This document shows, piece after piece, positions 39,158 to 59,516 of a DNA stretch of 64,000 bases (the stretch's first letter is position 1; each line of letters begins with the position of its first letter). Made by a program: the position numbers and the translations under genes. The DNA is taken from assembly GCA_950072105.1 (NCBI GenBank), contig CATMOE010000010.1, forward strand, positions 4,438 to 68,437, read 5' to 3'. The DNA is from an uncultured Dehalococcoidia bacterium (GTDB lineage: Bacteria > Chloroflexota > Dehalococcoidia > Lucifugimonadales > UBA3495). The notes below the pieces were generated by a model. That model was not told the origin of the DNA. It did not search any database and saw only the letters and a list, made by a program, of their open reading frames with translations.

Positions 39158-39271
39158 AACCGCCCATGTACGTAATCGGTACCGCGGGCCACGTGGACCA
39201 CGGCAAGTCCACCTTGGTCAAAGCCCTGACCAACATAGACCCCGACCGGCTCAAAGAGGAAAAAGAGCGGG
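39158..39271. repeat. right copy of the 114-bp direct repeat (native selB RBS plus first 35 codons)
   Basis: Direct comparison with 38124-38237 shows differences only at codons 5, 15, 24, 25 (all synonymous third positions) and codon 35 (CGG versus CAG at the junction). Confidence 0.85.
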
Positions 39272-41031
39272 AGATGACCATTGACCTGGGCTTTGCCTGG
39301 CTGACCTTGCCCAGCGGACGGGAAATCTCCATCGTCGATGTGCCCGGACACGAGCGGTTCATCAAGAACATGCTGGCCGGCGTCGGCGGAGTTGACCTAG
39401 CCATGCTGATCGTCGCGGCCGACGAAAGCGTCATGCCCCAGACCCGGGAACACCTGGCTATCCTCGATATCCTCCAGATCCGCAAAGGGATAGTCGTCAT
39501 CACCAAGACGGACACGGTTGACGAGGAACTGGTGGAGTTGGTCAAGGCCGAAGTGGAAGATTTCCTGGAAGGGACGTCCTTCCAGGGATGCCCCACGGTG
39601 GGCGTTTCCGCCTACACCGGCGACGGCCTTGACGAGCTCAAGTCCGTCCTAGATCAGGTGCTAGATAACACAGAGTCTCGGCGGGACCTGGGACGGCCCA
39701 GGCTGCCCGTGGACCGTAGTTTTACCATCTCTGGGTTCGGGACCGTGGTCACCGGAACGCTTATCGACGGTGCTCTTACCGTGGGCCAGGAGGTGGAGCT
39801 GGCCAATTCGGGCCGCCACGCCCGGATCCGCGGTCTCCAAAGCCACCAATCCAAAGTGGACCAAGCCCAACCCGGCGTTCGTTTAGCGGTAAATCTATCG
39901 GGCCTGTCCCGCAACGACGTGCCGCGGGGCGAAGTGCTTACTTCCGCCGGTTGGCTGCGCCGGACCAATCGATTGGACGCCAGGGTCAGGATGGTCAAAG
40001 GCGCGCCCCACTCCCTTCGTCACAACGAGGGCGTCACATTCCATCTATTTACCAGCGAGACCACCGCTCGCGTCAGGCTTCTGGACGCCGACCGCTTGGC
40101 CGCTGGGGAAGACGGCTGGGTCCAGATACTCCTCACCGAACCCCTGCCCATGGTCAAGGGCGACTTCTTCGTTCTGCGCTCGTCCGAAGACACACTGGGC
40201 GGCGGACAAGTGGTGGACCCCAACCCACGCCGCAGGCATCGCCGCTTCGTCGCTGAAGTCGTGGACCGGTTGATGACGCTGGACCAGGGTTCCGGCGAAG
40301 ACGTTCTCCTTAGTGTGGCCGACCAGTGGGGCCCCTGCGACACTTCGGTTCTGTCCCAGCGCTCCAATCTTCCCGTTTCCGAAGTTCTAGAGCGCATCGA
40401 AGCGCTGGAGTCTCAGGGCGACGTGGTAGTCCTGGGCGAATTGGGAACCGACAGCGGCGCCGTCGTTTACTCCACTCAAGGATGGAGCGCCATGACCGGC
40501 AAGCTTTTCCAGGCATTGCGCGCGTACCACGACCAATATCCTCTGCGCCGGGGGGCTCCCTCCCAAGAGATCCGCAGCCGGTTGGGTCTCTCTCAGCCCA
40601 TTTTCCTTAGGGCGCAAGCCCGGTTGACTGACCAAGAGTACTTAGTAGAAGAGGGGACGCATCTACGCCTTCCCGACCATCAAGTTGCCATGACTCCGGA
40701 GATGGAGGAAAAGGTTTCGGCATACATCAAAGCGTTGGAGCAAGACCCCTACTCTCCGCCCAGCGACCGGCCTTTGGACCCCGAGTTGCTGGGCGTTCTG
40801 GCGGAAGAGGGCAAGGTTGTACGGGTGAACGATACGATAGTGTTCGCCGCTTCTGCTTACCAAGAAATGACCGATCGCATCACCGAACACCTGAAGTCCA
40901 ACGGCAGCATTACGGTGGCCGAAGCCAGGACCATGTTCGACACCAGCCGCAAGTACATTCTTCCCCTTTTAGAGTATTTGGATCAACAGCGCGTTACTCG
41001 CCGGGTTGGCGACGAACGGGTGCTGCGGTAA
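39166..41031 (+). CDS. selB: selenocysteine-specific translation elongation factor
   Basis: 621 aa. G-motifs [21 protein letters not shown]. Long C-terminal winged-helix extension characteristic of bacterial SelB. Confidence 0.9.
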
Positions 41032-41037
41032 CCGGCC

Positions 41038-42246
41038 ATGCCCCTAGACCTGGGACAAACAATGCTCCAGTTGGACCTGGTGAGCCGGGGTCTGGTTGCC
41101 GATAGCGGCCAACGGGAAGCCCGCCTGACGGCCTTTGTCGACGCCGCATCCAAGGTCGACGCCGCGACGGCCATCGCCAAGACTGGATATGACCCAGAGC
41201 GCCCCTTTCTCGCCGCCCAGGTGCTGGACAGTTTGCTGGGCGCCTACGCCCCGGTAGAACCGCCCATGGACTGGTGCACGGTGGCCGTGGACGGGTCACA
41301 CATCGACGTGGACCGCCACCTACCCGTGGGCTGCTACCTGATCAACATGGGCGGCTGTTCATTGACCTACGGCTCTCAGCCTGACGCCAGTTTCTTCAGT
41401 CAGCCTAGCCTTTACCACCGGCCGGAAGACTTGTATCTAACCGATCCGTCAAACCCAAACTATGAAGAACCGGTGGCCGGTCCCCTGCTAGGTTTGATCC
41501 GTACTGTTCAGGAGTTGGAGCGCCTAGCCCAAGCGGTAGCAGACGTCCCAGCCGGTCTGCCCACTCTGGCGTTGGTCGACGGCTCCTTGGTCATGTGGGG
41601 ACTGTCGGGCCGGGGCTATCCTCCGTTCGTCAAAGAAGCCATCATCCAAGAGCGGCTGTTGCCGGCCCTGAACCAACTGCGGGAAGAGTCCCAACATCGC
41701 CCGCTTTGCCTGGCAGCCTACGTTTCCCTGCCCCGCAGCGCCGAGGTAGTAAACGCGGCCCGGACCAGTCTGTGCCCTACGGAACTTTCCCAGTGCCGGA
41801 GCCGTTGCAACAATCGCCGCAGCATCCAGGCGCCCTGCGACCTATCGAACGATTTCATCGACCGGGACTTGTTTCAACGAACGCTAGACCCGGGCTGGCG
41901 GTCGGCAACCTATTTGACCAACTCCTCGGTACCCAGGGAGAGCTACGGCGAACACCAGATCTGCTTCTTTTACCTGAACTGCGGCGAGGAGATCGGACGG
42001 ATCGAGCTGCCCCAGTGGGTCGCCCAAGACGAGAGGTTGCTATCCCTGTGCCACAGCCTGGTGCTAGACCAGTGCCGGCGCGGCCAGGGCTACCCGGTGG
42101 CCATCTCCGAGGCCCATGAGCAAGCGGTAATCAACGGCGCCGACCGCCAATTTTTCAAGCAGATGCTAGCGGAAGCCCTGGAACGAGAAGGCTTGCCGGT
42201 GTACACATCGGAAAAAGACCGCTCCAAACGCACGCCCTGGCTGTGA
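41038..42246 (+). CDS. nurA: NurA-domain nuclease
   Basis: 402 aa. ..VAVDGSHIDVDRH.. and ..LALVDGSLVMWGL.. NurA catalytic-Asp motifs. ATG lies 6 nt after the selB stop. No HerA in the window. Confidence 0.75.
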   Translation: MPLDLGQTMLQLDLVSRGLVADSGQREARLTAFVDAASKVDAATAIAKTGYDPERPFLAAQVLDSLLGAYAPVEPPMDWCTVAVDGSHIDVDRHLPVGCYLINMGGCSLTYGSQPDASFFSQPSLYHRPEDLYLTDPSNPNYEEPVAGPLLGLIRTVQELERLAQAVADVPAGLPTLALVDGSLVMWGLSGRGYPPFVKEAIIQERLLPALNQLREESQHRPLCLAAYVSLPRSAEVVNAARTSLCPTELSQCRSRCNNRRSIQAPCDLSNDFIDRDLFQRTLDPGWRSATYLTNSSVPRESYGEHQICFFYLNCGEEIGRIELPQWVAQDERLLSLCHSLVLDQCRRGQGYPVAISEAHEQAVINGADRQFFKQMLAEALEREGLPVYTSEKDRSKRTPWL

Positions 42247-47239: not shown

Positions 47240-49114
47240 TTGACAAGTCCGACCGGAGGAACCCAGGTAATAAACCAGGAAAAGATTCACCAAGAGAGCA
47301 TGGCGCTGGCCCCGTCTGCTACGGGGATCATCCCCTTCATGGACGAAGAGATCGTCCGCCTGGAAGAGGAGTCCCAAAAGTTCCAGAACGGTGAACTGGA
47401 AAACGCCGAATTCACCCCTTTCCGGCTACGCCAGGGAGTGTATGGCCAGCGCCAAGCCGACGTTCAGATGATACGAGTCAAACTGCCCGGTGGGATCATC
47501 ACCGCCGACGGTTTGCAAATGTTTGGGAAGATCACCGAACGGTATGCGCCTCTGCAAAAAGGTCACATCACCACACGGGAGAACATCCAGATCCACCACA
47601 TTCCCTTGGACGAGTGCCCAGAAGTTTTGCGTTTGCTGGCAGAGGTGGGGTTGAGCACCAGAGAAGCGTGCGGCAACACCGTCAGAAACGTGATCAGCTC
47701 GCCTGGCGCGGGGATATGCCCCGACGAAGTTTTCGACCCGACACCCCACCTGACAGCCTACGTGCGGTTCGGCATTCGCCATCCCATCACGCAGAACTTC
47801 CCTCGCAAGTTCAAGACGGCCTTCACCGGATGCGACTCCCATGACACCGTGGCCGCCGCCATCCAGGACCTGACCTTCGTCTCTCAGATCAGAGAGACTG
47901 ACGGCGTTACCCAACGGGGGTTCAGAATATTCGTGGGCGGCGGCACATCCATCATGCCCCGGCTAGCCAAACCTTTGTACGACTTCCTGCCTGAGGACGA
48001 CTACTTGCGGCTGAGTTTGGCCATCTGGACGGTCTTCAACAACGCCCAGATGTTGCGCAAGAACCGTATGATGGCCCGGCTCAAGGTTCTCATCGACCGG
48101 ATCGGGCTGGATGATTTTCGCGCGCAAGTTGAGGAAGAACTGGAGAAGATAGGCCCCATAGACCCCAAGCCTTTGATGGAAGCCGAAGAGATCCATAGAG
48201 AAACCGCGCCGGCTGTGGAGCATCTCTCCTTCCCGGCCCTCAAACTCAACGGATCCTCTAACAACGGTCACCACGGAGACGATGAGTTCGATCACTGGAC
48301 GGAAACAAACGTTTCCGCTCAGAAGCAAGAAGGCTATTACCTGGTCTACGTCAAAATGACCCGTGGCGACATCACCGCAGCCCAGTTCCACGGTCTGGCA
48401 GACATTGTCCGCCGCTACACCGGCGGCCGCGCCCGAACCAACCAGGAGCAGAACCTGGCCCTCCGCTGGGTCCCTGGCCAGTCATTGAAAGAAGTATGGC
48501 AAGCATTGAAAGCCATTGGTTTGGCCGATGCCGACGTCCACACCATCGCTGACGTCGTTTCCTGCCCCGGAACCGACAGCTGCAAGCTGGGCATCACCTC
48601 GTCGATGGGCCTGTCCAAGGCCGTGACGGATGATATGGCGGGCTGGAACGGTTTGATGGAGGACGAAGGGGTCCGTAAGATCCGCATCAAGATAAGCGGC
48701 TGCCCCAACGGATGCGGGCTGCACCACATCGCCAACATAGGCTTCCACGGCGCGGCCGTTAAAGGCCCCGACGGCGATCAGATCCCGGCCTACGAGCTGT
48801 TCCTAGGCGGCAACTACGGCGATAACCGAGTGGAGGACTCCAGCATCGGCACGCGGATTCCCAAGGTGAAAGTCCCCGCCAAGGCCGTTCCGGGCGTCAT
48901 CAAACAGATCACCACCTACTACAAAGAGAACCGCCAGAACCAGGAGAGCTTCAACAAGTTCCTGGAAAGGGTCGGTATCGCCCAACTAACCGCCGTCGCC
49001 GCCCAAGCCCAGAGTATCACCGAGTCCACCGAAGCGGGTTCCGACCTTTACTTCGATTGGGAGCGGACCAACATATACAAGCTGGAACGCGGTGAAGGTG
49101 AGTGCATGGTCTAG
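47240..49114 (+). CDS. sulfite/nitrite reductase hemoprotein (ferredoxin-dependent type)
   Basis: 624 aa. Siroheme-[4Fe-4S] Cys motifs ..SCPGTDSCKLG.. and ..SGCPNGCGLHH.. TTG start 5 nt after AGGAGG. Confidence 0.85.
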   Translation: MTSPTGGTQVINQEKIHQESMALAPSATGIIPFMDEEIVRLEEESQKFQNGELENAEFTPFRLRQGVYGQRQADVQMIRVKLPGGIITADGLQMFGKITERYAPLQKGHITTRENIQIHHIPLDECPEVLRLLAEVGLSTREACGNTVRNVISSPGAGICPDEVFDPTPHLTAYVRFGIRHPITQNFPRKFKTAFTGCDSHDTVAAAIQDLTFVSQIRETDGVTQRGFRIFVGGGTSIMPRLAKPLYDFLPEDDYLRLSLAIWTVFNNAQMLRKNRMMARLKVLIDRIGLDDFRAQVEEELEKIGPIDPKPLMEAEEIHRETAPAVEHLSFPALKLNGSSNNGHHGDDEFDHWTETNVSAQKQEGYYLVYVKMTRGDITAAQFHGLADIVRRYTGGRARTNQEQNLALRWVPGQSLKEVWQALKAIGLADADVHTIADVVSCPGTDSCKLGITSSMGLSKAVTDDMAGWNGLMEDEGVRKIRIKISGCPNGCGLHHIANIGFHGAAVKGPDGDQIPAYELFLGGNYGDNRVEDSSIGTRIPKVKVPAKAVPGVIKQITTYYKENRQNQESFNKFLERVGIAQLTAVAAQAQSITESTEAGSDLYFDWERTNIYKLERGEGECMV

Positions 49115-49123
49115 GGTACGGGA

Positions 49124-49948
49124 GTGGCAGCCTCGCTAAGCGGCAAAGTCGTCGCCTTTTTGGAATCCCGCATGCAATCGGAGATGGCGGGGCTGATTGA
49201 ACGCCATGGAGGCACACCCTACCCTGCTCCGGTCCTTCAGGAGGTCTATCTGAAGGACAGCCCTGAAGTGCGGCGATTGATTCAGGATATCTGCGCCGAA
49301 CAGGTCGATATAGTCGTCCTGCTCACCGGCGTGGGCACCCAAGCCCTCGTCGAGACCGCCGCGTCCATGGGCCTGGAGCAAGATTTTCTCCGGAGCCTGA
49401 ACACCCGGACCATCATCGCCCGCAGCCCCAAGCCCGCCAGGGTGCTGCGCCGGCACAAGATTCACATCGACGTCATGCCGCCGGAACCCTACACCTCACA
49501 GGACTTGATCCAGGCCATACAGGATATGGACTTGTCCGGAAAAGAAGTGGCGGTGCAGGCATACGGCGGGCCCAACAGCTTCCTCAAACGCAGTTTGCAA
49601 GAAAGCGGCGCTAATGTTCGAGAAGTCACGCTGTATACCTGGGGGCTTCCCGAGGATACGGCGCCGGTGGTGCGGCTGATCGACGATCTGGCCCTGGGCG
49701 CGATCGATGCCATGGCATTCACCAGCCAACCCCAGGTTGAAAACCTGCTGACCGTCGCCGCTCAGATGGGAAGGGACGAATCCTTGAGGAAAAGTCTTGA
49801 CCAACCGTCGCTGGCGATCGCTTCCATAGGACCGGTTTGCAGCCGGAAGCTGAGGGAGAAGCACATCAAGATCGACGTGGAACCGGAGCACGTTCACATG
49901 GGCAACCTGATAGTCGCCCTAGCCGAACACTTGGGTCCGGACGTTTAA
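49124..49948 (+). CDS. hemD: uroporphyrinogen-III synthase family protein
   Basis: 274 aa. Two-lobed HemD-like pattern (..VVLLTGVGT.., ..AMAFTSQPQV.., ..IASIGPV..). Context is directly after a siroheme enzyme. Confidence 0.65.
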   Translation: MAASLSGKVVAFLESRMQSEMAGLIERHGGTPYPAPVLQEVYLKDSPEVRRLIQDICAEQVDIVVLLTGVGTQALVETAASMGLEQDFLRSLNTRTIIARSPKPARVLRRHKIHIDVMPPEPYTSQDLIQAIQDMDLSGKEVAVQAYGGPNSFLKRSLQESGANVREVTLYTWGLPEDTAPVVRLIDDLALGAIDAMAFTSQPQVENLLTVAAQMGRDESLRKSLDQPSLAIASIGPVCSRKLREKHIKIDVEPEHVHMGNLIVALAEHLGPDV

Positions 49949-50364: not shown

Positions 50365-50771
50365 ACCGCCTCCAGTCAGGTAACTCTCGGTTGTGCCAGT
50401 AATTCTCTCTGGACCAGGCTGAAGGTTGGCTCCGATCGGTTCCGGCCCGATACCACCGTTAGGCTATCGATTCCCAGGCTGCATCTGAGCCTAAATAGAT
50501 ACAGGGGTGAATTATACCGTACCCTGACAGTCGCCGGGAAGAGGAGAATCCACTGAATTTCCCGTCCGTTCTCGATTCCGTCCCAGGACTAGTTGCGAAA
50601 TCACAACGGCCTGGCCTTCTTGGAGCACCTTTCTAGTCATTGGAGCCTTATTCTTCACTCTTGTGAATTGGCTCTTCATTGGGGTAGGATGCCGGAAGCA
50701 GGTACAATTCTCAACCGGTCCCCATGGAACCCCCGTGGTGGGAAAAGGATTATCACGTGGTTGAACAACTG

Positions 50772-51794
50772 ATGTTGAGTGTGGTCGACCAGTCTCCTGT
50801 GAGGGACGGCGACTCCGCCGGAGACGCTCTCCGAGATACCATCGAATTGGCGGCGGTGGTGGAAAAACTAGGATACCAACGGTATTGGCTGGCTGAGCAC
50901 CACAGCATCGCCAACTTCGCCGGGACCAGCCCGGAAATACTGATCGGACAGGTGGCCGCCCGCACCAAGACCATCCGGGTGGGCAGCGGCGGCGTGATGC
51001 TTTCCCATTACAGCGCGTTCAAGGTGGCGGAAAACTTCCGAATGTTGGAGGCGCTCTATCCCGGGCGCATCGACCTGGGCATCGGACGCGCCCCAGGAAG
51101 CGACCAACTGACCAACGCGGCCCTGTCCTACCCCAAACGCCCCGCTGACATCAGCCATTTCCCCCAACAGGTAACCGACGTGCTGGGCCACCTCGGGGGC
51201 AGTCTTGACGCCGAGCACATCTTTGCCGGCATCCGCGCCGGCCCCGTCCCCACAGGAATGCCCCATGTCTGGCTTCTGGGTTCCCGTTACGAAAGCGCAT
51301 ATATGGCGGCAAGCCTGGGCCTGCCCTTCGCCTACGCCCACTTTTTCGGCCTAGGAGTCGAAGAAGGTCCGCAAATAGTGGATGGATACCGTAAAAGCTT
51401 CAAACCGTCGGAATACCTGTCCGAGCCCAAGGTCAACATCGGCGTTCAGGTACTTTGCGCTGACACCGAAGAAGCGGCCCTACGCATAGCCTCGAGCCGC
51501 AACCTGGCCCGCCTCAAGTCGGTCACCGGACGGGCGAGGGGCGTACCCACCATCGAAGAAGCGCTGGCCTACGAGTACGCGCCCAACGAGGTAGCCTATA
51601 CCCAGCAATATACCAGGCTCTGCGTCGATGGCACGCCGGAGCAGGTGAAAGAACGGCTGGACGAACTGGCCGAGATGTACCAGACCCAAGATCTGAGCAT
51701 CGTTACGATCTGCTACGCCTTTGCCGACCGGGTCCGCTCCTACGAGTTGGTGGCTCAGGTCTGCGGGCTGGAGCAAGGGCCGGGTAGCTGCTAG
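50772..51794 (+). CDS. LLM class flavin-dependent oxidoreductase (luciferase family group 1)
   Basis: Start taken at MLSVVDQSPV.. (ATG 50772), as in this family. ..YQRYWLAEHH.. signature. Confidence 0.85.
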   Translation: MLSVVDQSPVRDGDSAGDALRDTIELAAVVEKLGYQRYWLAEHHSIANFAGTSPEILIGQVAARTKTIRVGSGGVMLSHYSAFKVAENFRMLEALYPGRIDLGIGRAPGSDQLTNAALSYPKRPADISHFPQQVTDVLGHLGGSLDAEHIFAGIRAGPVPTGMPHVWLLGSRYESAYMAASLGLPFAYAHFFGLGVEEGPQIVDGYRKSFKPSEYLSEPKVNIGVQVLCADTEEAALRIASSRNLARLKSVTGRARGVPTIEEALAYEYAPNEVAYTQQYTRLCVDGTPEQVKERLDELAEMYQTQDLSIVTICYAFADRVRSYELVAQVCGLEQGPGSC

Positions 51795-56969: not shown

Positions 56970-57098
56970 GGATTGTAGAGGCCGGATCAGCTTGTAAGTC
57001 TTCCTGCGTTGACACTAACCGAACCCGCAGGTAGACTCCGAAATGTATCGCAAGTTCACACCGTCCTTAAAAGTTGGTTTGCATCGATAGGAGTTCCC

Positions 57099-58064
57099 AT
57101 GGCACAGCCAGATAAGAACCGGTCCTTTTACTCCAAATATTTTCGGGAAGGCGAAGTTCTGCACGGATTGCAGGTCCAGCCGGACGACCGCGAGTGGGTT
57201 CTATCCGTGCCTAAAGACGACGTTAAACCACATGATGTAGTCCTGTATCTGGGATGCAACGTGTTGAAAACCAGCAATCTAGTTCAGACGGTGGTGGATA
57301 TATTCAAGTTGATGGATGTGGACTTCGTCGCGGTGGGCGGCGCCTCTTATTGCTGCGGGATCCAGCATTTCCAGCGAGGGGACGAGTCAGCGGCTCGCTC
57401 GATGTCGCGCACAACCATGGATAATTTCAAAAAGTTCCAGCCCGAGCAGGTGGTGATGTGGTGTCCTTCCTGCATCTACTTCTACGATGACATCATGGAC
57501 CTAAAGGAAGAGATGCCCTTCCAGCACGTGACCGAATTCCTGATGCAGAACCTGGACAAGCTGGACTTCAAGCCCCAGCCGGAAGCGAAAGTGAGCCTGC
57601 ACTACCATACGGGAAGGGAACAATCGGACATTGAGGCCCGCTCCGCTTTTCAACTTCTGTCCTTATTACCGGGCATCGAAGTGGCCGACTTGGGTAGCGA
57701 TGCCCGGCTCAGCCGCCACTGCACGGCCGCGGCAAGGGAAAAAACCGGCGCCGAGATATGGGACGGCATCATCAAGGGATCATTCGACCGGGCCGTGGAA
57801 GAAAACGTGGACATCTACTCCACCCTATACCACGGTTGCCAGCGTGACCTTTGCCGCCACGAAAAAGACTACCCCCTAAGGGTTGACCACTACCTGACGT
57901 TGGTGGGACGGGCGCTGGGCATCGAACATGAGGACCTGTACAAGAAATACATGATGATGGGCGACCTGGAAGGCATCCTAGCTGAAACCAGCCCCTGTTC
58001 CGTTGCCAGCGGCATCAAGCCGGAAGAGGCCCGAGAGATCATACAGAAGACTTTCGTGAGCTAG
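57099..58064 (+). CDS. CCG-domain (HdrB/GlpC/LutA-like cysteine-rich) protein
   Basis: Start taken at the ATG at 57099 (TAGGAG RBS). ..LYLGCNVL..(x)..ASYCCGI.. and a second ..WCPSC.. cysteine-rich repeat. Confidence 0.65.
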   Translation: MAQPDKNRSFYSKYFREGEVLHGLQVQPDDREWVLSVPKDDVKPHDVVLYLGCNVLKTSNLVQTVVDIFKLMDVDFVAVGGASYCCGIQHFQRGDESAARSMSRTTMDNFKKFQPEQVVMWCPSCIYFYDDIMDLKEEMPFQHVTEFLMQNLDKLDFKPQPEAKVSLHYHTGREQSDIEARSAFQLLSLLPGIEVADLGSDARLSRHCTAAAREKTGAEIWDGIIKGSFDRAVEENVDIYSTLYHGCQRDLCRHEKDYPLRVDHYLTLVGRALGIEHEDLYKKYMMMGDLEGILAETSPCSVASGIKPEEAREIIQKTFVS

Positions 58065-58306: not shown

Positions 58307-58350
58307 ATTGAACGCAACGCCCTCGCGTATATCGGGAGGCAGGAGGAACC

Positions 58351-59178
58351 ATGGCGCAAGAAGGATATTCGCATCCGGAGTTCTTGGTGGATGCCGAGTG
58401 GGTGGACGCCCATAAGGACGATGCCAACGTTGTTATCGTTGATTGCGACGTCGAGGTAGGCTTTGTCCGGGGCCACATCCCCGAGTCCGTGTTGGTGCCC
58501 GACAACTACGAGAAGAACCCGGACACGGGCCGGGTCCTTCTGATGGAACCGGACCAGTTCAAGGCCATGTGTCAGGGACTGGGTATCGGTGACGACACTC
58601 TAGTCATCGCATACGACAACTCCCAGAGCCTCACTGCCGCCCGGCTGTGGTGGGCGCTTAACACCTATGGCCACGGCAACGTCAAGGTGCTGGACGGCGG
58701 GTGGCGCCGCTGGGTGTCCGAGGGCCACAAGATCAGCTTCGACCGTGCCCACCCCAACACCAACGTGACCTTCACTCCCAAGCGCGATGAGTCGCTGCTA
58801 GTCAAGGTCGACGAACTCAAAGCCGCCTGTAATCTGGACAGCGCGGTTATCTGGGACGTGCGGAGCAACGGAGAGTGGGACGGCAGCGCTGGCCGGGGCA
58901 ACAAGCGAGTCGGCCACGTACCGGGAGCGGTGCATCTGGAATGGTTCAACCTGATGGACCGGGACACGCACCAGTTCAAGTCCGCCGGAGACATACGGCG
59001 CATCTTGTCTGAGAATGGCATCACGCCGGACAAGAACGTTTACACGTATTGACAGGGTGGCATCCGAGCGGCGAACAGTGTGTTCGTCATGCAGTTGGTG
59101 GGATACAACAACACTAAGAACTACGATGGCTCCATGGGCGAATGGGCCAACATGGAGGACACTCCGCTGGAGGTCTAA
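58351..59178 (+). CDS. two-domain rhodanese (thiosulfate/3-mercaptopyruvate sulfurtransferase family) with predicted selenocysteine (TGA 59050-59052) in the catalytic loop
   Basis: The track ORF stops at TGA after ..NVYTY. The same frame continues QGGIRAANSVFVMQLVGYNNTKNYDGSMGEWANMEDTPLEV to TAA at 59176-59178. TGA therefore sits where the family has the catalytic Cys (Y-C-x-G-x-R-A), and the tail carries the conserved YDGSxxEW. Confidence 0.7.
59060..59092 (+). promoter_or_regulatory. SECIS-like hairpin 8 nt downstream of the in-frame TGA
   Basis: Lower stem gcat (59060-59063) pairs with atgc (59089-59092). A 6-nt bulge follows. Upper stem is ggcgaaca (59070-59077) with tgttcgtc (59081-59088, one G-U). 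Apical loop is GUG. Confidence 0.5.
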
Positions 59179-59249
59179 GCGGCAACCAAGCAATGAAATG
59201 ATATGAGGAGCTTCGGACGGACGACATAGCAACATACGTTATTGGCGCA

Positions 59250-59516
59250 GTGCTAAGTGTGAAAGACCCAGAGAAGTTCGCCGCCTACCAACAGGCCGCC
59301 GGACCCACCGTGGCCCTATACGGCGGCAAGATCTTGGGTGGCGGTACCAACATTGAAGTTGCCGACGGAACCTGGTCACCCATCGGCATGGTGGTGATCG
59401 AGTTCGAAACCATGGCCAAGGCCAAGGAGTGGTACACATCGCCGGAATACACCGCGGTAAAATCCGGGCGGTTGGACAGCACCGACGGCGGCTTGGTATT
59501 CCTGGACGCGGGTTAA
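59250..59516 (+). CDS. DUF1330 domain-containing protein
   Basis: ..VIEFETMAKAKEWYTSPEY.. is the DUF1330 signature. Homology seems to begin upstream of the GTG at 59250 (..ATYVIGAV..), where no canonical start codon exists. Confidence 0.65.
   Translation: MLSVKDPEKFAAYQQAAGPTVALYGGKILGGGTNIEVADGTWSPIGMVVIEFETMAKAKEWYTSPEYTAVKSGRLDSTDGGLVFLDAG

What the first reader, a model, noticed from the sequence alone, without database searches (positions are those of the whole stretch)
58351..59178. Predicted selenocysteine in the catalytic loop of a rhodanese sulfurtransferase, with a SECIS-like hairpin
**Seen in sequence.**
- The ORF 58351-59052 ends at TGA (59050-59052) after ..PDKNVYTY.
- The same frame stays open for 41 more codons (QGGIRAANSVFVMQLVGYNNTKNYDGSMGEWANMEDTPLEV) to TAA at 59176-59178.
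- A hairpin starts 8 nt after the TGA (59060-59092). It has a 4-bp lower stem, a 6-nt bulge, an 8-bp upper stem and a GUG apex about 27 nt from the UGA.

**Established knowledge.**
- In two-domain rhodaneses (TST/MST), the catalytic Cys opens a six-residue loop (C-x-x-x-x-R) directly after a beta-strand, and the C-terminus carries YDGSxxEW.
- The TGA therefore falls exactly on the catalytic Cys position (U-Q-G-G-I-R).
- The hairpin distance and shape are compatible with bacterial SECIS elements.
- selB, which is needed only for Sec insertion, is encoded at 39166-41031 in the same window.

**Inference.** This is a Sec-containing sulfurtransferase, possibly a persulfide/perselenide carrier. From memory, rhodanese-related selenoproteins have been listed in ocean-metagenome selenoproteome surveys. 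I cannot verify that here.
Basis: partly seen in the sequence, partly recalled or inferred. Interest (0 to 1): 0.75.

Follow-up and report, generated by a model that had tools for sequence, protein, structure and literature searches.

The report
Selenocysteine rhodanese of marine SAR202 bacteria
This gene really does encode a sulfur-transfer enzyme whose catalytic cysteine is replaced by selenocysteine, read from an in-frame UGA, but the family was already predicted from ocean metagenomes in 2005; the only new point is that this lineage uses a different, shifted RNA hairpin after the UGA.

Summary

- **Gene:** ORF 58351-59052 ends at TGA. The frame runs 41 more codons to TAA at 59176-59178.
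- **Catalytic position:** the TGA aligns with the catalytic Cys of solved two-domain rhodaneses and of 12 full-length Cys homologues (TY-C-QGGIRA).
- **Conservation:** all 80 species-representative Dehalococcoidia/SAR202 genomes fetched (61-97 % identity) have TGA at this codon. The extension is conserved, with dN/dS 0.05-0.14.
- **Genetic code:** TGA is a normal stop for 7 of 21 other genes in the window.
- **Machinery:** selB (39166-41031) scores above the TIGR00475 cut-off. selA, selD and tRNA-Sec are not in the window.
- **Prior knowledge:** the protein is 63 % identical, with U aligned to C, to AACY01016424, the "Rhodanase-related sulfurtransferase" selenoprotein of Zhang et al. 2005. The family is also listed in the 2008 ocean survey and in the 2022 and 2026 reviews.
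- **New here:** the family's usual hairpin (CGUGC-GGC-GCACG, apex 21-23 nt from the UGA) is disrupted in the window's lineage. An overlapping 8-bp hairpin sits 8 nt further downstream (59070-59088, loop GUG).
- **Support for the hairpin:** synonymous-site constraint, the strongest in the gene, follows whichever hairpin a lineage carries.
- **Limits:** nothing has been shown experimentally, and compensatory covariation is weak.

The parts
58341..58346 (+). Shine-Dalgarno-like AGGAGG, 4 nt before the ATG
   Evidence: Read directly from the sequence.
58351..59178 (+). Full selenoprotein gene: 275 codons including the Sec codon, plus the TAA stop. It is a two-domain rhodanese sulfurtransferase.
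   Evidence: Translation. Pfam PF00581 matches twice, E = 6.6e-35. Best solved relative is 1uar, E = 3.5e-40. The gene is conserved end to end in 80 of 80 loci.
58393..58719 (+). N-terminal rhodanese domain (aa 15-123), non-catalytic. It has Asp89 (..IAYDNSQS..) where a catalytic Cys would sit.
   Evidence: Best Pfam stretch is 15-123. The internal repeat alignment puts YD opposite YC (second segment). Calling the N-terminal domain of two-domain rhodaneses inactive rests on established knowledge.
58798..59160 (+). C-terminal catalytic rhodanese domain (about aa 150-270). It is interrupted by the UGA and carries the NYDGSMGEW motif.
   Evidence: Alignments to solved structures and to Cys homologues. 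Domain borders are approximate.
59050..59052 (+). In-frame TGA read as selenocysteine (residue 234), at the catalytic Cys position. It is preceded by an invariant TAT and followed by an invariant C.
   Evidence: TGA in 80 of 80 orthologues and in 13 more distant relatives. Cys sits here in all 12 aligned full-length homologues and in solved structures.
59050..59067 (+). Six-residue active-site loop U-Q-G-G-I-R
   Evidence: Q235, G237 and R239 are invariant in the alignment with Cys forms. The 2026 review gives the motif UxxG for this family.
59070..59088 (+). SECIS-like hairpin of the window's lineage ('type A'): GGCGAACA / GUG / UGUUCGUC, loop at 59078-59080. It may extend by G19-C43 and C20-G42 (59068-59092).
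   Evidence: Fold. 98.8 % of cells are paired in 18 sequences, against 20-55 % when the partners are slid. Synonymous codon entropy is zero at codons 241-246 in this group. Three pairs join third-codon positions (21-39, 24-36, 27-33).
59064..59078 (+). Remnant of the family's ancestral hairpin ('type B', CCGUGC-GGC-GCACG[G]). In the window it is disrupted: CCGAGC-GGC-GAACAG.
   Evidence: Only 49 % of cells are paired in the window's group, and pairs 16-28, 18-26 and 19-25 are broken in at least 16 of 17 sequences. In 63 other SAR202 sequences these positions are invariant. The 5-bp core 16-20/24-28 is kept in relatives from contigs of 28-67 % GC.
59053..59175 (+). 41-codon extension translated after the UGA
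   Evidence: dN/dS is 0.05 in the window's group and 0.14 in the others, at or below the N-terminal part (0.11 and 0.16). GC3 is 0.80 after the TGA against 0.78 before it. Length is 41 codons in 74 of 81 sequences, with no frameshift.
59176..59178 (+). True stop codon TAA
   Evidence: Orthologues diverge completely just after their stop.
39166..41031 (+). selB, the selenocysteine-specific elongation factor (621 aa)
   Evidence: NCBIfam TIGR00475: 355.1 bits, cut-off 242.25, profile positions 2-580 of 581.

Best explanation
The gene at 58351-59178 encodes a 275-residue two-domain rhodanese-type sulfurtransferase of a marine Dehalococcoidia (SAR202-type) bacterium. The UGA at 59050-59052 is decoded as selenocysteine, not as a stop.

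**Shown here**
- The UGA sits on the catalytic Cys position.
- It is conserved in every orthologue examined.
- The sequence after it is translated, because it is under strong purifying selection.
- An RNA hairpin immediately downstream is under synonymous-site constraint.
- selB is on the same contig.

**Inferred decoding step**
SelB carrying Sec-tRNA(Sec) binds the hairpin on the mRNA as the ribosome reaches the UGA and delivers Sec. The window's lineage uses the hairpin at 59070-59088 (loop GUG, 28-30 nt from the UGA). Most of the family uses CGUGC-GGC-GCACG, whose apex is 21-23 nt from the UGA and whose spacing matches the E. coli fdhF SECIS. That comparison rests on my own knowledge.

**Inferred chemistry, by analogy with Cys rhodaneses**
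Sec234 is the nucleophile of a double-displacement reaction. It takes a sulfane sulfur from a donor such as thiosulfate or 3-mercaptopyruvate, forms an enzyme Se-S(-) intermediate, and passes the sulfur to a thiophilic acceptor. The loop Q-G-G-I-R cradles the anion. The selenolate is expected to be a better nucleophile and leaving group than a thiolate. The physiological donor and acceptor are unknown.
For: **Position of the UGA**
- phmmer against solved structures aligns the TGA with the loop Cys of 1uar (vvyCriaers) and of M. tuberculosis 3hwi/3aax (iayCrigers).
- All 12 full-length Cys homologues aligned have ..TYCQGGIRA.. there.
- About 100 of 150 cluster representatives have Cys at this position, and 29 stop exactly there.

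**Conservation**
- TGA is present in 80 of 80 species-representative genomes at 61-97 % identity.
- It is also present in 13 more distant sequences from contigs of 28-67 % GC.

**Translation past the UGA**
- dN/dS is 0.05 and 0.14 in the extension, against 0.11 and 0.16 upstream.
- GC3 is unchanged across the TGA, 0.78 then 0.80. It falls after ordinary TGA stops in the window.

**Not a recoded genome**
- TGA ends 7 of 21 family-supported genes in the window.

**Hairpin**
- The lowest synonymous-codon entropy of the whole gene lies in the 13-codon windows starting at codons 232-233. The mean is 0.30 against a gene mean of 0.66, Mann-Whitney p = 1e-4.
- The zero-entropy codons are 241-246 where the type-A hairpin lies and 235 plus 238-242 where type B lies.
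- The type-B core is invariant in 27 diverse sequences. Pair 15-29 appears as C-G, A-U and G-C. The covariation score is 0.084 against 0.034 +/- 0.012 for shuffles, with 0 of 500 shuffles reaching it.

**Machinery and family identity**
- selB scores above its curated cut-off.
- The protein is 63 % identical over 72 residues, U aligned to C, to the published Sargasso Sea selenoprotein AACY01016424.
Against: - There is no experimental evidence anywhere for Sec in this family. All literature entries are computational.
- selA, selD and tRNA-Sec are not in the 64-kb window. The rest of the genome could not be searched.
- Within SAR202 both hairpin stems are invariant, so there are no compensatory changes: 0 in type A and 2 non-significant pairs in type B. 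Support rests on synonymous-site constraint.
- The window's hairpin is 8 nt further from the UGA than the family norm, and its loop (GUN) differs from GGC. Its recognition by SelB is assumed.
- No Rfam family matches.
- Gene neighbourhood is not conserved, so the pathway cannot be inferred.
Confidence: 0.9

Rival explanations
1. The TGA is a genuine stop. The gene is a truncated or decaying rhodanese, or a sequencing or assembly error, and only the 233-residue product lacking the catalytic loop is made.
For: Every automatic gene call in public databases stops there: the best 120 relatives are all 232-234 aa. TGA is a normal stop elsewhere in the window.
Against: The same codon is TGA in 80 of 80 independent genomes and in more distant relatives. 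The 41 downstream codons keep frame, length and amino-acid sequence, with dN/dS 0.05-0.14. A 233-residue product would lack the catalytic residue and half of the catalytic domain.
Confidence: 0.02
2. The UGA is read through, but not as selenocysteine. Possible routes are near-cognate Trp or Cys insertion, or SelB-delivered Cys under selenium limitation. The hairpin would then only slow the ribosome or weaken termination.
For: The invariant UGA-C context and invariant upstream TAT would also favour leaky termination; that UGA-C is a weak terminator in E. coli is my own knowledge. No selA, selD or selC was seen in the window.
Against: The codon lies on the one residue where Sec replaces Cys in known Sec/Cys enzyme pairs. 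selB, which has no other known role, is on the contig. The conserved hairpin has the place and form of bacterial SECIS elements and was scored as one in the 2005 study. A Trp or Gly at the catalytic position would kill the enzyme, and lineages wanting Cys simply use TGC/TGT, as hundreds of homologues do.
Confidence: 0.05
3. In the window's lineage the 59070-59088 hairpin is not the SelB-binding element. The conserved GCGGCG or some other feature is what SelB recognises, and the stem is conserved for another reason such as mRNA stability, codon or amino-acid constraint.
For: There are no compensatory changes in the type-A stem. GCGGCG (positions 19-24) is invariant in both hairpin types. Spacing and loop differ from the family norm. 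The 61-nt region folds no better than shuffles.
Against: Synonymous positions 21, 24, 27, 33, 36 and 39 pair with one another and are frozen only in sequences with this hairpin. The same codons vary freely in type-B sequences (entropy 0.3-0.9 at codons 243-247), and codons 235-239 are free in type A but frozen in type B. The ancestral hairpin is destroyed in type A, so some replacement is needed if the UGA is still decoded, as the selected extension shows.
Confidence: 0.15

Closest known systems
[quoted passage not shown]
   Same: Same protein family and the same Sec position. The window protein is 63 % identical over 72 residues to AACY01016424, with U aligned. It shares the U-Q-[GA]-G-[IV]-R-A-A loop (UxxG), the C-terminal YDGSMGEWAN..DTPL motif and the marine origin.
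   Different: All three published Sargasso sequences, and most relatives, carry the CGUGC-GGC-GCACG hairpin with its apex 21-23 nt from the UGA. The window has that hairpin disrupted and an overlapping one 8 nt downstream. The published entries are short fragments with no organism assigned. Here the gene is full length and placed in Dehalococcoidia/SAR202.
Cys-containing two-domain rhodaneses: T. thermophilus rhodanese 1uar, M. tuberculosis CysA/SseA (3hwi, 3aax, 3hzu), A. vinelandii RhdA 1e0c, E. coli SseA 1urh, bovine rhodanese 1rhd
   Same: Same two-domain fold by sequence (E = 1e-20 to 3.5e-40). Same inactive N-terminal domain and same six-residue catalytic loop after a beta-strand. The loop ends in Arg, as in the thiosulfate-type loops CRIGER and, from my own knowledge, CQTHHR.
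   Different: The catalytic residue is Sec instead of Cys. Identity is only about 35-40 %. No NCBIfam equivalog is reached (best is 3-mercaptopyruvate sulfurtransferase, 114 bits against a cut-off of 250), so substrate specificity cannot be transferred.
Bacterial SECIS elements (E. coli fdhF type; the bSECIS consensus of Zhang & Gladyshev)
   Same: A stem-loop inside the coding sequence directly after the UGA, with a G at the start of a small apical loop and the apex within the 16-37 nt range of the consensus model (my own knowledge of that model). Type B starts 11-12 nt after the UGA, like fdhF.
   Different: The window's hairpin starts 17 nt after the UGA and has a 3-nt loop, GUG. No bulged U is evident. 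Binding by SelB is untested. No Rfam model matches.
Other rhodanese-domain selenoproteins (forms 1-3 and 5: PF00581 UxxS, COG0607 forms, NF041203 rhodanese_LYCAU CxU, TsoB NF045694)
   Same: A rhodanese domain containing Sec.
   Different: These are single-domain or fusion proteins with different motifs. NF041203 matches the window protein at only 37 bits against a cut-off of 115, and in the wrong region (residues 81-125). The window gene is not a member.

Membership tests
Two-domain rhodanese / sulfurtransferase (COG2897, SseA-like; Pfam PF00581 x2) | Two tandem rhodanese domains | tested here: met
   PF00581 matches in 2 stretches, 120 bits against a cut-off of 22. End-to-end alignment to 1uar, 3hwi and 1e0c.
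Two-domain rhodanese / sulfurtransferase (COG2897, SseA-like; Pfam PF00581 x2) | Catalytic Cys as first residue of a six-residue loop in the C-terminal domain | tested here: met
   The position is occupied by the UGA codon. Cys is aligned there in solved structures and in 12 of 12 full-length homologues. The feature is met as a Sec-for-Cys replacement.
Two-domain rhodanese / sulfurtransferase (COG2897, SseA-like; Pfam PF00581 x2) | Sulfurtransferase activity with thiosulfate or 3-mercaptopyruvate | not testable with these tools
   No NCBIfam equivalog cut-off is reached. An enzyme assay is needed.
Bacterial selenoprotein | In-frame UGA conserved among orthologues, with translated sequence downstream | tested here: met
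   80 of 80 orthologues plus 13 distant relatives have TGA. dN/dS of the extension is 0.05-0.14.
Bacterial selenoprotein | Cys-containing homologues align Cys to the UGA | tested here: met
Bacterial selenoprotein | SECIS stem-loop just downstream of the UGA with G in the apical loop | tested here: met
   A hairpin is present in all sequences and is under synonymous-site constraint. Covariation is seen only at the base of the type-B stem and is absent for the window's type-A stem. Function as a SelB site is untested.
Bacterial selenoprotein | Sec machinery in the genome (selA, selB, selC, selD) | tested here: inconclusive
   selB is present. There is no tRNA in the window, and no selA or selD among the 20 window ORFs scanned in NCBIfam. 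The rest of the genome is not available.
Bacterial selenoprotein | Selenium shown in the protein (75Se labelling or mass spectrometry) | not testable with these tools
   No experimental report was found in the papers read.
Rhodanese-related sulfurtransferase selenoprotein family of Zhang et al. 2005 ('form 4', UxxG) | Sequence homology to the published members with Sec at the same position and the UxxG motif | tested here: met
   BLASTP gives 63 % identity, E = 2e-34, with U/C aligned to AACY01016424. The loop U-Q-G-G fits UxxG.
Rhodanese-related sulfurtransferase selenoprotein family of Zhang et al. 2005 ('form 4', UxxG) | The family's SECIS hairpin CGUGC-GGC-GCACG, 15-29 nt after the UGA | tested here: not met
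   It is disrupted in the window and its 17 closest relatives: 49 % of cells paired and 3 of 6 pairs broken. It is replaced by the 59070-59088 hairpin. This is a difference in the RNA element, not in the protein family.

The most novel reading that the evidence does not exclude
The family's SECIS element has moved within one orthologous gene.

- The ancestral hairpin has its apex 21-23 nt from the UGA. A latent overlapping hairpin with its apex at 29-31 nt shares the segment G21-G24.
- In type-B sequences the latent stem is already 77 % paired and is blocked only by a C25-U35 mismatch.
- The single change C25 to A (His242Asn) both breaks the old stem (G19-C25) and completes the new one (A25-U35). 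G28 to A (Gly243Ser) then tightens it. L019 (AANG) looks like an intermediate.
- Carriers of the new hairpin fall into three robust groups, and one carrier of the old hairpin (L030) is nested among them. The switch therefore happened more than once, or moved by recombination, or L030 is an assembly chimera.

If the new hairpin is the working SECIS, this would be a natural experiment on how much spacing and loop variation a Chloroflexota SelB tolerates. It would also show an RNA signal and two amino acids next to an active site evolving together.

A second open reading is that this selenoenzyme is a core gene of SAR202 (80 species), which would tie part of deep-ocean sulfur metabolism to selenium supply.
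Probability: 0.55. Interest if true: 0.45.

Novelty: already known. Interest (0 to 1): 0.3.

Why it matters
The core claim, a rhodanese with selenocysteine at its catalytic position, has been in the computational literature since 2005. This is therefore confirmation rather than discovery.

It still has some practical value:
- **Annotation:** every one of the best 120 database entries for this gene is cut at the UGA, losing the active site. Annotations of a gene present in at least 80 Dehalococcoidia/SAR202 species are wrong.
- **Organism:** a family known only from anonymous fragments is now placed in SAR202, an abundant deep-ocean lineage linked to sulfur cycling. That suggests a selenium requirement there.
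- **Test case:** the shifted hairpin gives a small, testable case of SECIS turnover inside a coding sequence.

Tried and rejected
- **Rfam at gathering thresholds:** no match in the window.
- **ARAGORN:** no tRNA, hence no tRNA-Sec, in the window.
- **Folding energy of 59050-59110:** not better than shuffles (z = +0.22). Thermodynamic significance was dropped as an argument. Only the 25-nt core reaches z = -2.4.
- **Compensatory covariation within SAR202:** none for the window's hairpin and not significant for type B. Only the deeper alignment gave a signal.
pair 12-42 is broken in 6 of 17 sequences and it is not in the minimum-energy fold. Rejected.
- **Operon context:** the CCG-domain gene upstream is kept in 4 of 80 loci, the DUF1330 gene downstream in 18 of 80 and the SDR gene in 15 of 80. 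No functional inference was drawn.
- **Other in-frame TGA genes in the window:** a scan with a GC3 criterion found no other convincing candidate.
- **selA or selD among 20 window ORFs:** none found.
- The first tree script timed out.
- **Single derived clade for the window-type hairpin:** not supported. Monophyly has 25 % bootstrap, the backbone is unresolved, and L030 is nested with 100 %.
- **Dedicated NCBIfam selenoprotein model:** none fits. NF041203 scores 37 bits against a cut-off of 115.
Full report
**1. The observation**

The sequence is as described. ATG at 58351 is preceded by AGGAGG (58341-58346). The ORF runs to TGA at 59050-59052 after ..PDKNVYTY. The same frame then continues for 41 codons to TAA at 59176-59178.

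The 8-bp stem GGCGAACA/UGUUCGUC with loop GUG lies at 59070-59088. On its own it folds at -9.6 kcal/mol, with z = -2.4. The wider 61-nt region is no more stable than shuffled sequence (z = +0.22), so folding energy alone proves nothing.

One of its pairs is broken in 6 of 17 relatives.

**2. What the protein is**

Pfam finds two rhodanese domains. The best solved relatives are two-domain rhodaneses and sulfurtransferases: 1uar at 3.5e-40, M. tuberculosis 3hwi/3aax, A. vinelandii 1e0c, E. coli SseA 1urh and bovine rhodanese.

In those alignments the TGA falls on the Cys that opens the catalytic loop. The query reads ytyCqggira, 1uar reads vvyCriaers and 3hwi reads iayCrigers.

A search of 1.8 billion cluster representatives with the 233-residue N-terminal part gave 10,632 relatives. 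Of the best 150, about 100 have Cys at this position, typically ..TYCQxGxRA... Another 29 end exactly there. In an alignment with 12 full-length Cys forms (38-44 % identity), Cys is aligned to the TGA in every one, and Q235, G237 and R239 are invariant.

**3. Is the UGA conserved and read through?**

The best 120 database relatives (70-99 % identity) are all called at 232-234 residues, so all are cut at the same spot.

I fetched 80 loci from species-representative genomes. All are Dehalococcoidia, SAR202 or Chloroflexota metagenome-assembled genomes with 61-97 % identity, and the closest is ALOHA_A2.5_21 at 97 %.
- The codon aligned to the window's TGA is TGA in 80 of 80.
- Each is followed by a conserved extension (41 codons in 74 of 81 sequences) and a true stop.
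- After that stop the sequences diverge at once.

Nei-Gojobori estimates give dN/dS of 0.05 for the extension in the window's group and 0.14 in the others. The N-terminal part gives 0.11 and 0.16 (dS is near saturation, so the values are approximate).

GC3 is 0.78 before the TGA and 0.80 after it, whereas it drops after ordinary TGA stops in the window. TGA terminates 7 of 21 family-supported genes in the window, so the genome does not reassign UGA globally.

A truncated gene, a pseudogene or a sequencing error are therefore excluded.

**4. Sec machinery**

The ORF at 39166-41031 is selB (TIGR00475, 355 bits against a cut-off of 242, full-length match). No tRNA is present in the window. None of the 20 window ORFs scanned in NCBIfam is selA or selD. 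The rest of the genome could not be examined.

**5. The RNA element**

Folding the 66 nt after the UGA in all 81 sequences shows two different hairpins. Positions are numbered with the U of UGA as 1.

*Type B* occurs in 63 SAR202 sequences with the amino acids ..AAHG...
- It is C15CGUGC20 / G21GC23 / G24CACGG29 on a long lower stem.
- Positions 13-29 are invariant, including six synonymous sites.

*Type A* occurs in the window and 17 relatives with ..AANS...
- It is G21GCGAACA28 / G29U30N31 / U32GUUCGUC39, and positions 19-42 are almost invariant.
- Three of its pairs (21-39, 24-36, 27-33) join third-codon positions.

Synonymous-codon entropy along the gene is lowest in the 13-codon windows starting at codons 232-233. 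The mean there is 0.30 against a gene mean of 0.66, and Mann-Whitney p = 1e-4 for codons 235-248.

The footprint moves with the hairpin:
- In type A, codons 241-246 have zero entropy while 235-239 are free (0.5-0.85).
- In type B, codons 235 and 238-242 have zero entropy while those from 243 on are free.

The Tyr233 codon TAT and the C after the UGA are invariant in all 81 sequences.

Pair counts are as follows:
- Type A: 98.8 % paired, no compensatory change.
- Type B: 90.1 % paired, two double changes, not significant.
- Slid controls: 20-55 % paired.

Covariation inside SAR202 is therefore uninformative, because the stems do not vary.

To gain depth I fetched 11 more distant UGA-truncated relatives (31-48 % identity, contig GC 28-67 %) and took the three Sargasso Sea sequences from the 2005 supplement.
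- All have TGA, Q-[GAS]-G-[IVG]-R-A.., an extension and a stop.
- All keep the core CGUGC-G[GU]C-GCACG.
- In this 27-sequence alignment, pair 15-29 occurs as C-G (21), A-U (2) and G-C (2).
- The covariation score is 0.084 against 0.034 +/- 0.012 for shuffles, with 0 of 500 shuffles reaching it. RNAalifold recovers the same 6-bp stem.

Type B is therefore the ancestral, family-wide SECIS-like element. Its stem starts 11-12 nt after the UGA, as in E. coli fdhF (my own knowledge).

**6. The window's lineage has a relocated hairpin**

The ancestral stem is destroyed in type-A sequences: 49 % of cells are paired, and pairs 16-28, 18-26 and 19-25 are broken in at least 16 of 17.

Conversely, the type-A stem is latent in type-B sequences. 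It is 76.7 % paired there, and only pair 25-35 (C-U) never forms.
- C25 to A (His242Asn) both breaks the old stem and completes the new one.
- G28 to A (Gly243Ser) turns a G-U pair into A-U.
- L019 (AANG) has the intermediate state.

In neighbour-joining trees built without the hairpin codons, type-A carriers form three groups, each with 100 % bootstrap. The backbone is unresolved, with 25 % support for monophyly.

One type-B sequence, L030, nests inside a type-A group with 100 % support. The number of switches, recombination and assembly chimerism remain open questions.

**7. What is already known**

Zhang, Fomenko and Gladyshev (Genome Biol 2005, PMC1088965) list 'Rhodanese-related sulfurtransferase, COG2897' with 3 sequences among 15 new selenoprotein families of the Sargasso Sea. 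They drew the SECIS of AACY01016424.

Their supplement gives ..DKAIYTYuQAGVRAAHANFVLQLIG..YDGSMGEWANLEDTPLVK. The window protein is 63 % identical to it over 72 residues, with U aligned to C.

The 2008 GOS survey (PMC2398784) counts 8 Sec sequences against 3,367 Cys homologues. [quoted passage not shown] All of this is computational. I found no experimental characterisation and no paper linking SAR202 to this selenoprotein.

**8. Mechanism**

Shown here: the position, the conservation, translation past the UGA, the constrained hairpin and selB.

Inferred: SelB with Sec-tRNA(Sec) binds the hairpin and inserts Sec at residue 234. Sec234 acts as the nucleophile of the rhodanese double-displacement reaction, carrying sulfane sulfur as an Se-S(-) adduct within the loop U-Q-G-G-I-R.

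Substrates are unknown. No NCBIfam equivalog is reached and the gene neighbourhood is not conserved. The 'perselenide carrier' idea is not excluded, but nothing supports it.

**9. Verdict**

It is, however, an instance of an already predicted selenoprotein family.

New points of modest interest are:
- the placement in SAR202, with conservation in 80 species;
- the systematic truncation of this gene in public annotation;
- the relocated SECIS-like hairpin in the window's lineage.

Noticed in passing
window 41038-42246 (+), next to selB 39166-41031: A NurA-domain protein (PF09376, E = 2.8e-19) starts 7 nt after the selB stop. selB has no selA or selC beside it, which is an unusual arrangement for Sec genes.
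   Followed up: no
window 59202-59516 (+): A DUF1330 gene lies just downstream of the rhodanese. The Pfam match begins at about 59232, but the first canonical in-frame start is GTG at 59250. An SD-like GAGGAG sits at 59205-59210, so the real start may be non-canonical. A homologue lies downstream of the rhodanese in 18 of 80 related loci.
   Followed up: partly
window 57009-58064 (+): A CCG-domain (HdrD/GlpC-like cysteine-rich) protein lies directly upstream of the rhodanese, a possible thiol/disulfide partner. It is kept next to the rhodanese in only 4 of 80 loci.
   Followed up: partly
window 47240-49948 (+): A NirA/sulfite-reductase-like hemoprotein (624 aa) is followed by uroporphyrinogen-III synthase HemD. 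This is a sulfur or nitrogen assimilation module about 9 kb from the rhodanese.
   Followed up: no
database relatives P0001-P0120; e.g. P0066 named 'sulfurtransferase [Chloroflexota bacterium]': All of the best 120 public gene calls for this family end at the UGA (232-234 aa, 85 % of the true length) and so lack the catalytic residue. This is a systematic mis-annotation.
   Followed up: yes
L030:2800-2847 (JABMNL010000041.1, SAR202 bin.363): This sequence carries the ancestral type-B hairpin and ..AAHG.., yet it nests with 100 % bootstrap inside a clade whose other 12 members carry the relocated type-A hairpin. It could be a reversal, short-tract recombination or a chimeric assembly.
   Followed up: partly
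window 59047-59053 and the same place in L001-L080: The Tyr codon before the UGA is TAT and the base after the UGA is C in all 81 sequences. This conserved UGA context lies outside either hairpin's core.
   Followed up: partly
L093:812-859 (JGI 3300081965, 67 % GC): A distant Sec-type relative has loop GUC instead of GGC, a stem lengthened to GGGCGUGC/GCACGCCC, and a catalytic loop U-Q-S-G-G-R.
   Followed up: no
window 50724-51794 (+): An MsnO8-family luciferase-like monooxygenase (TIGR03558, 377 bits). This enzyme class is expanded in SAR202 (my own knowledge), which fits the taxonomic placement of the window.
   Followed up: no
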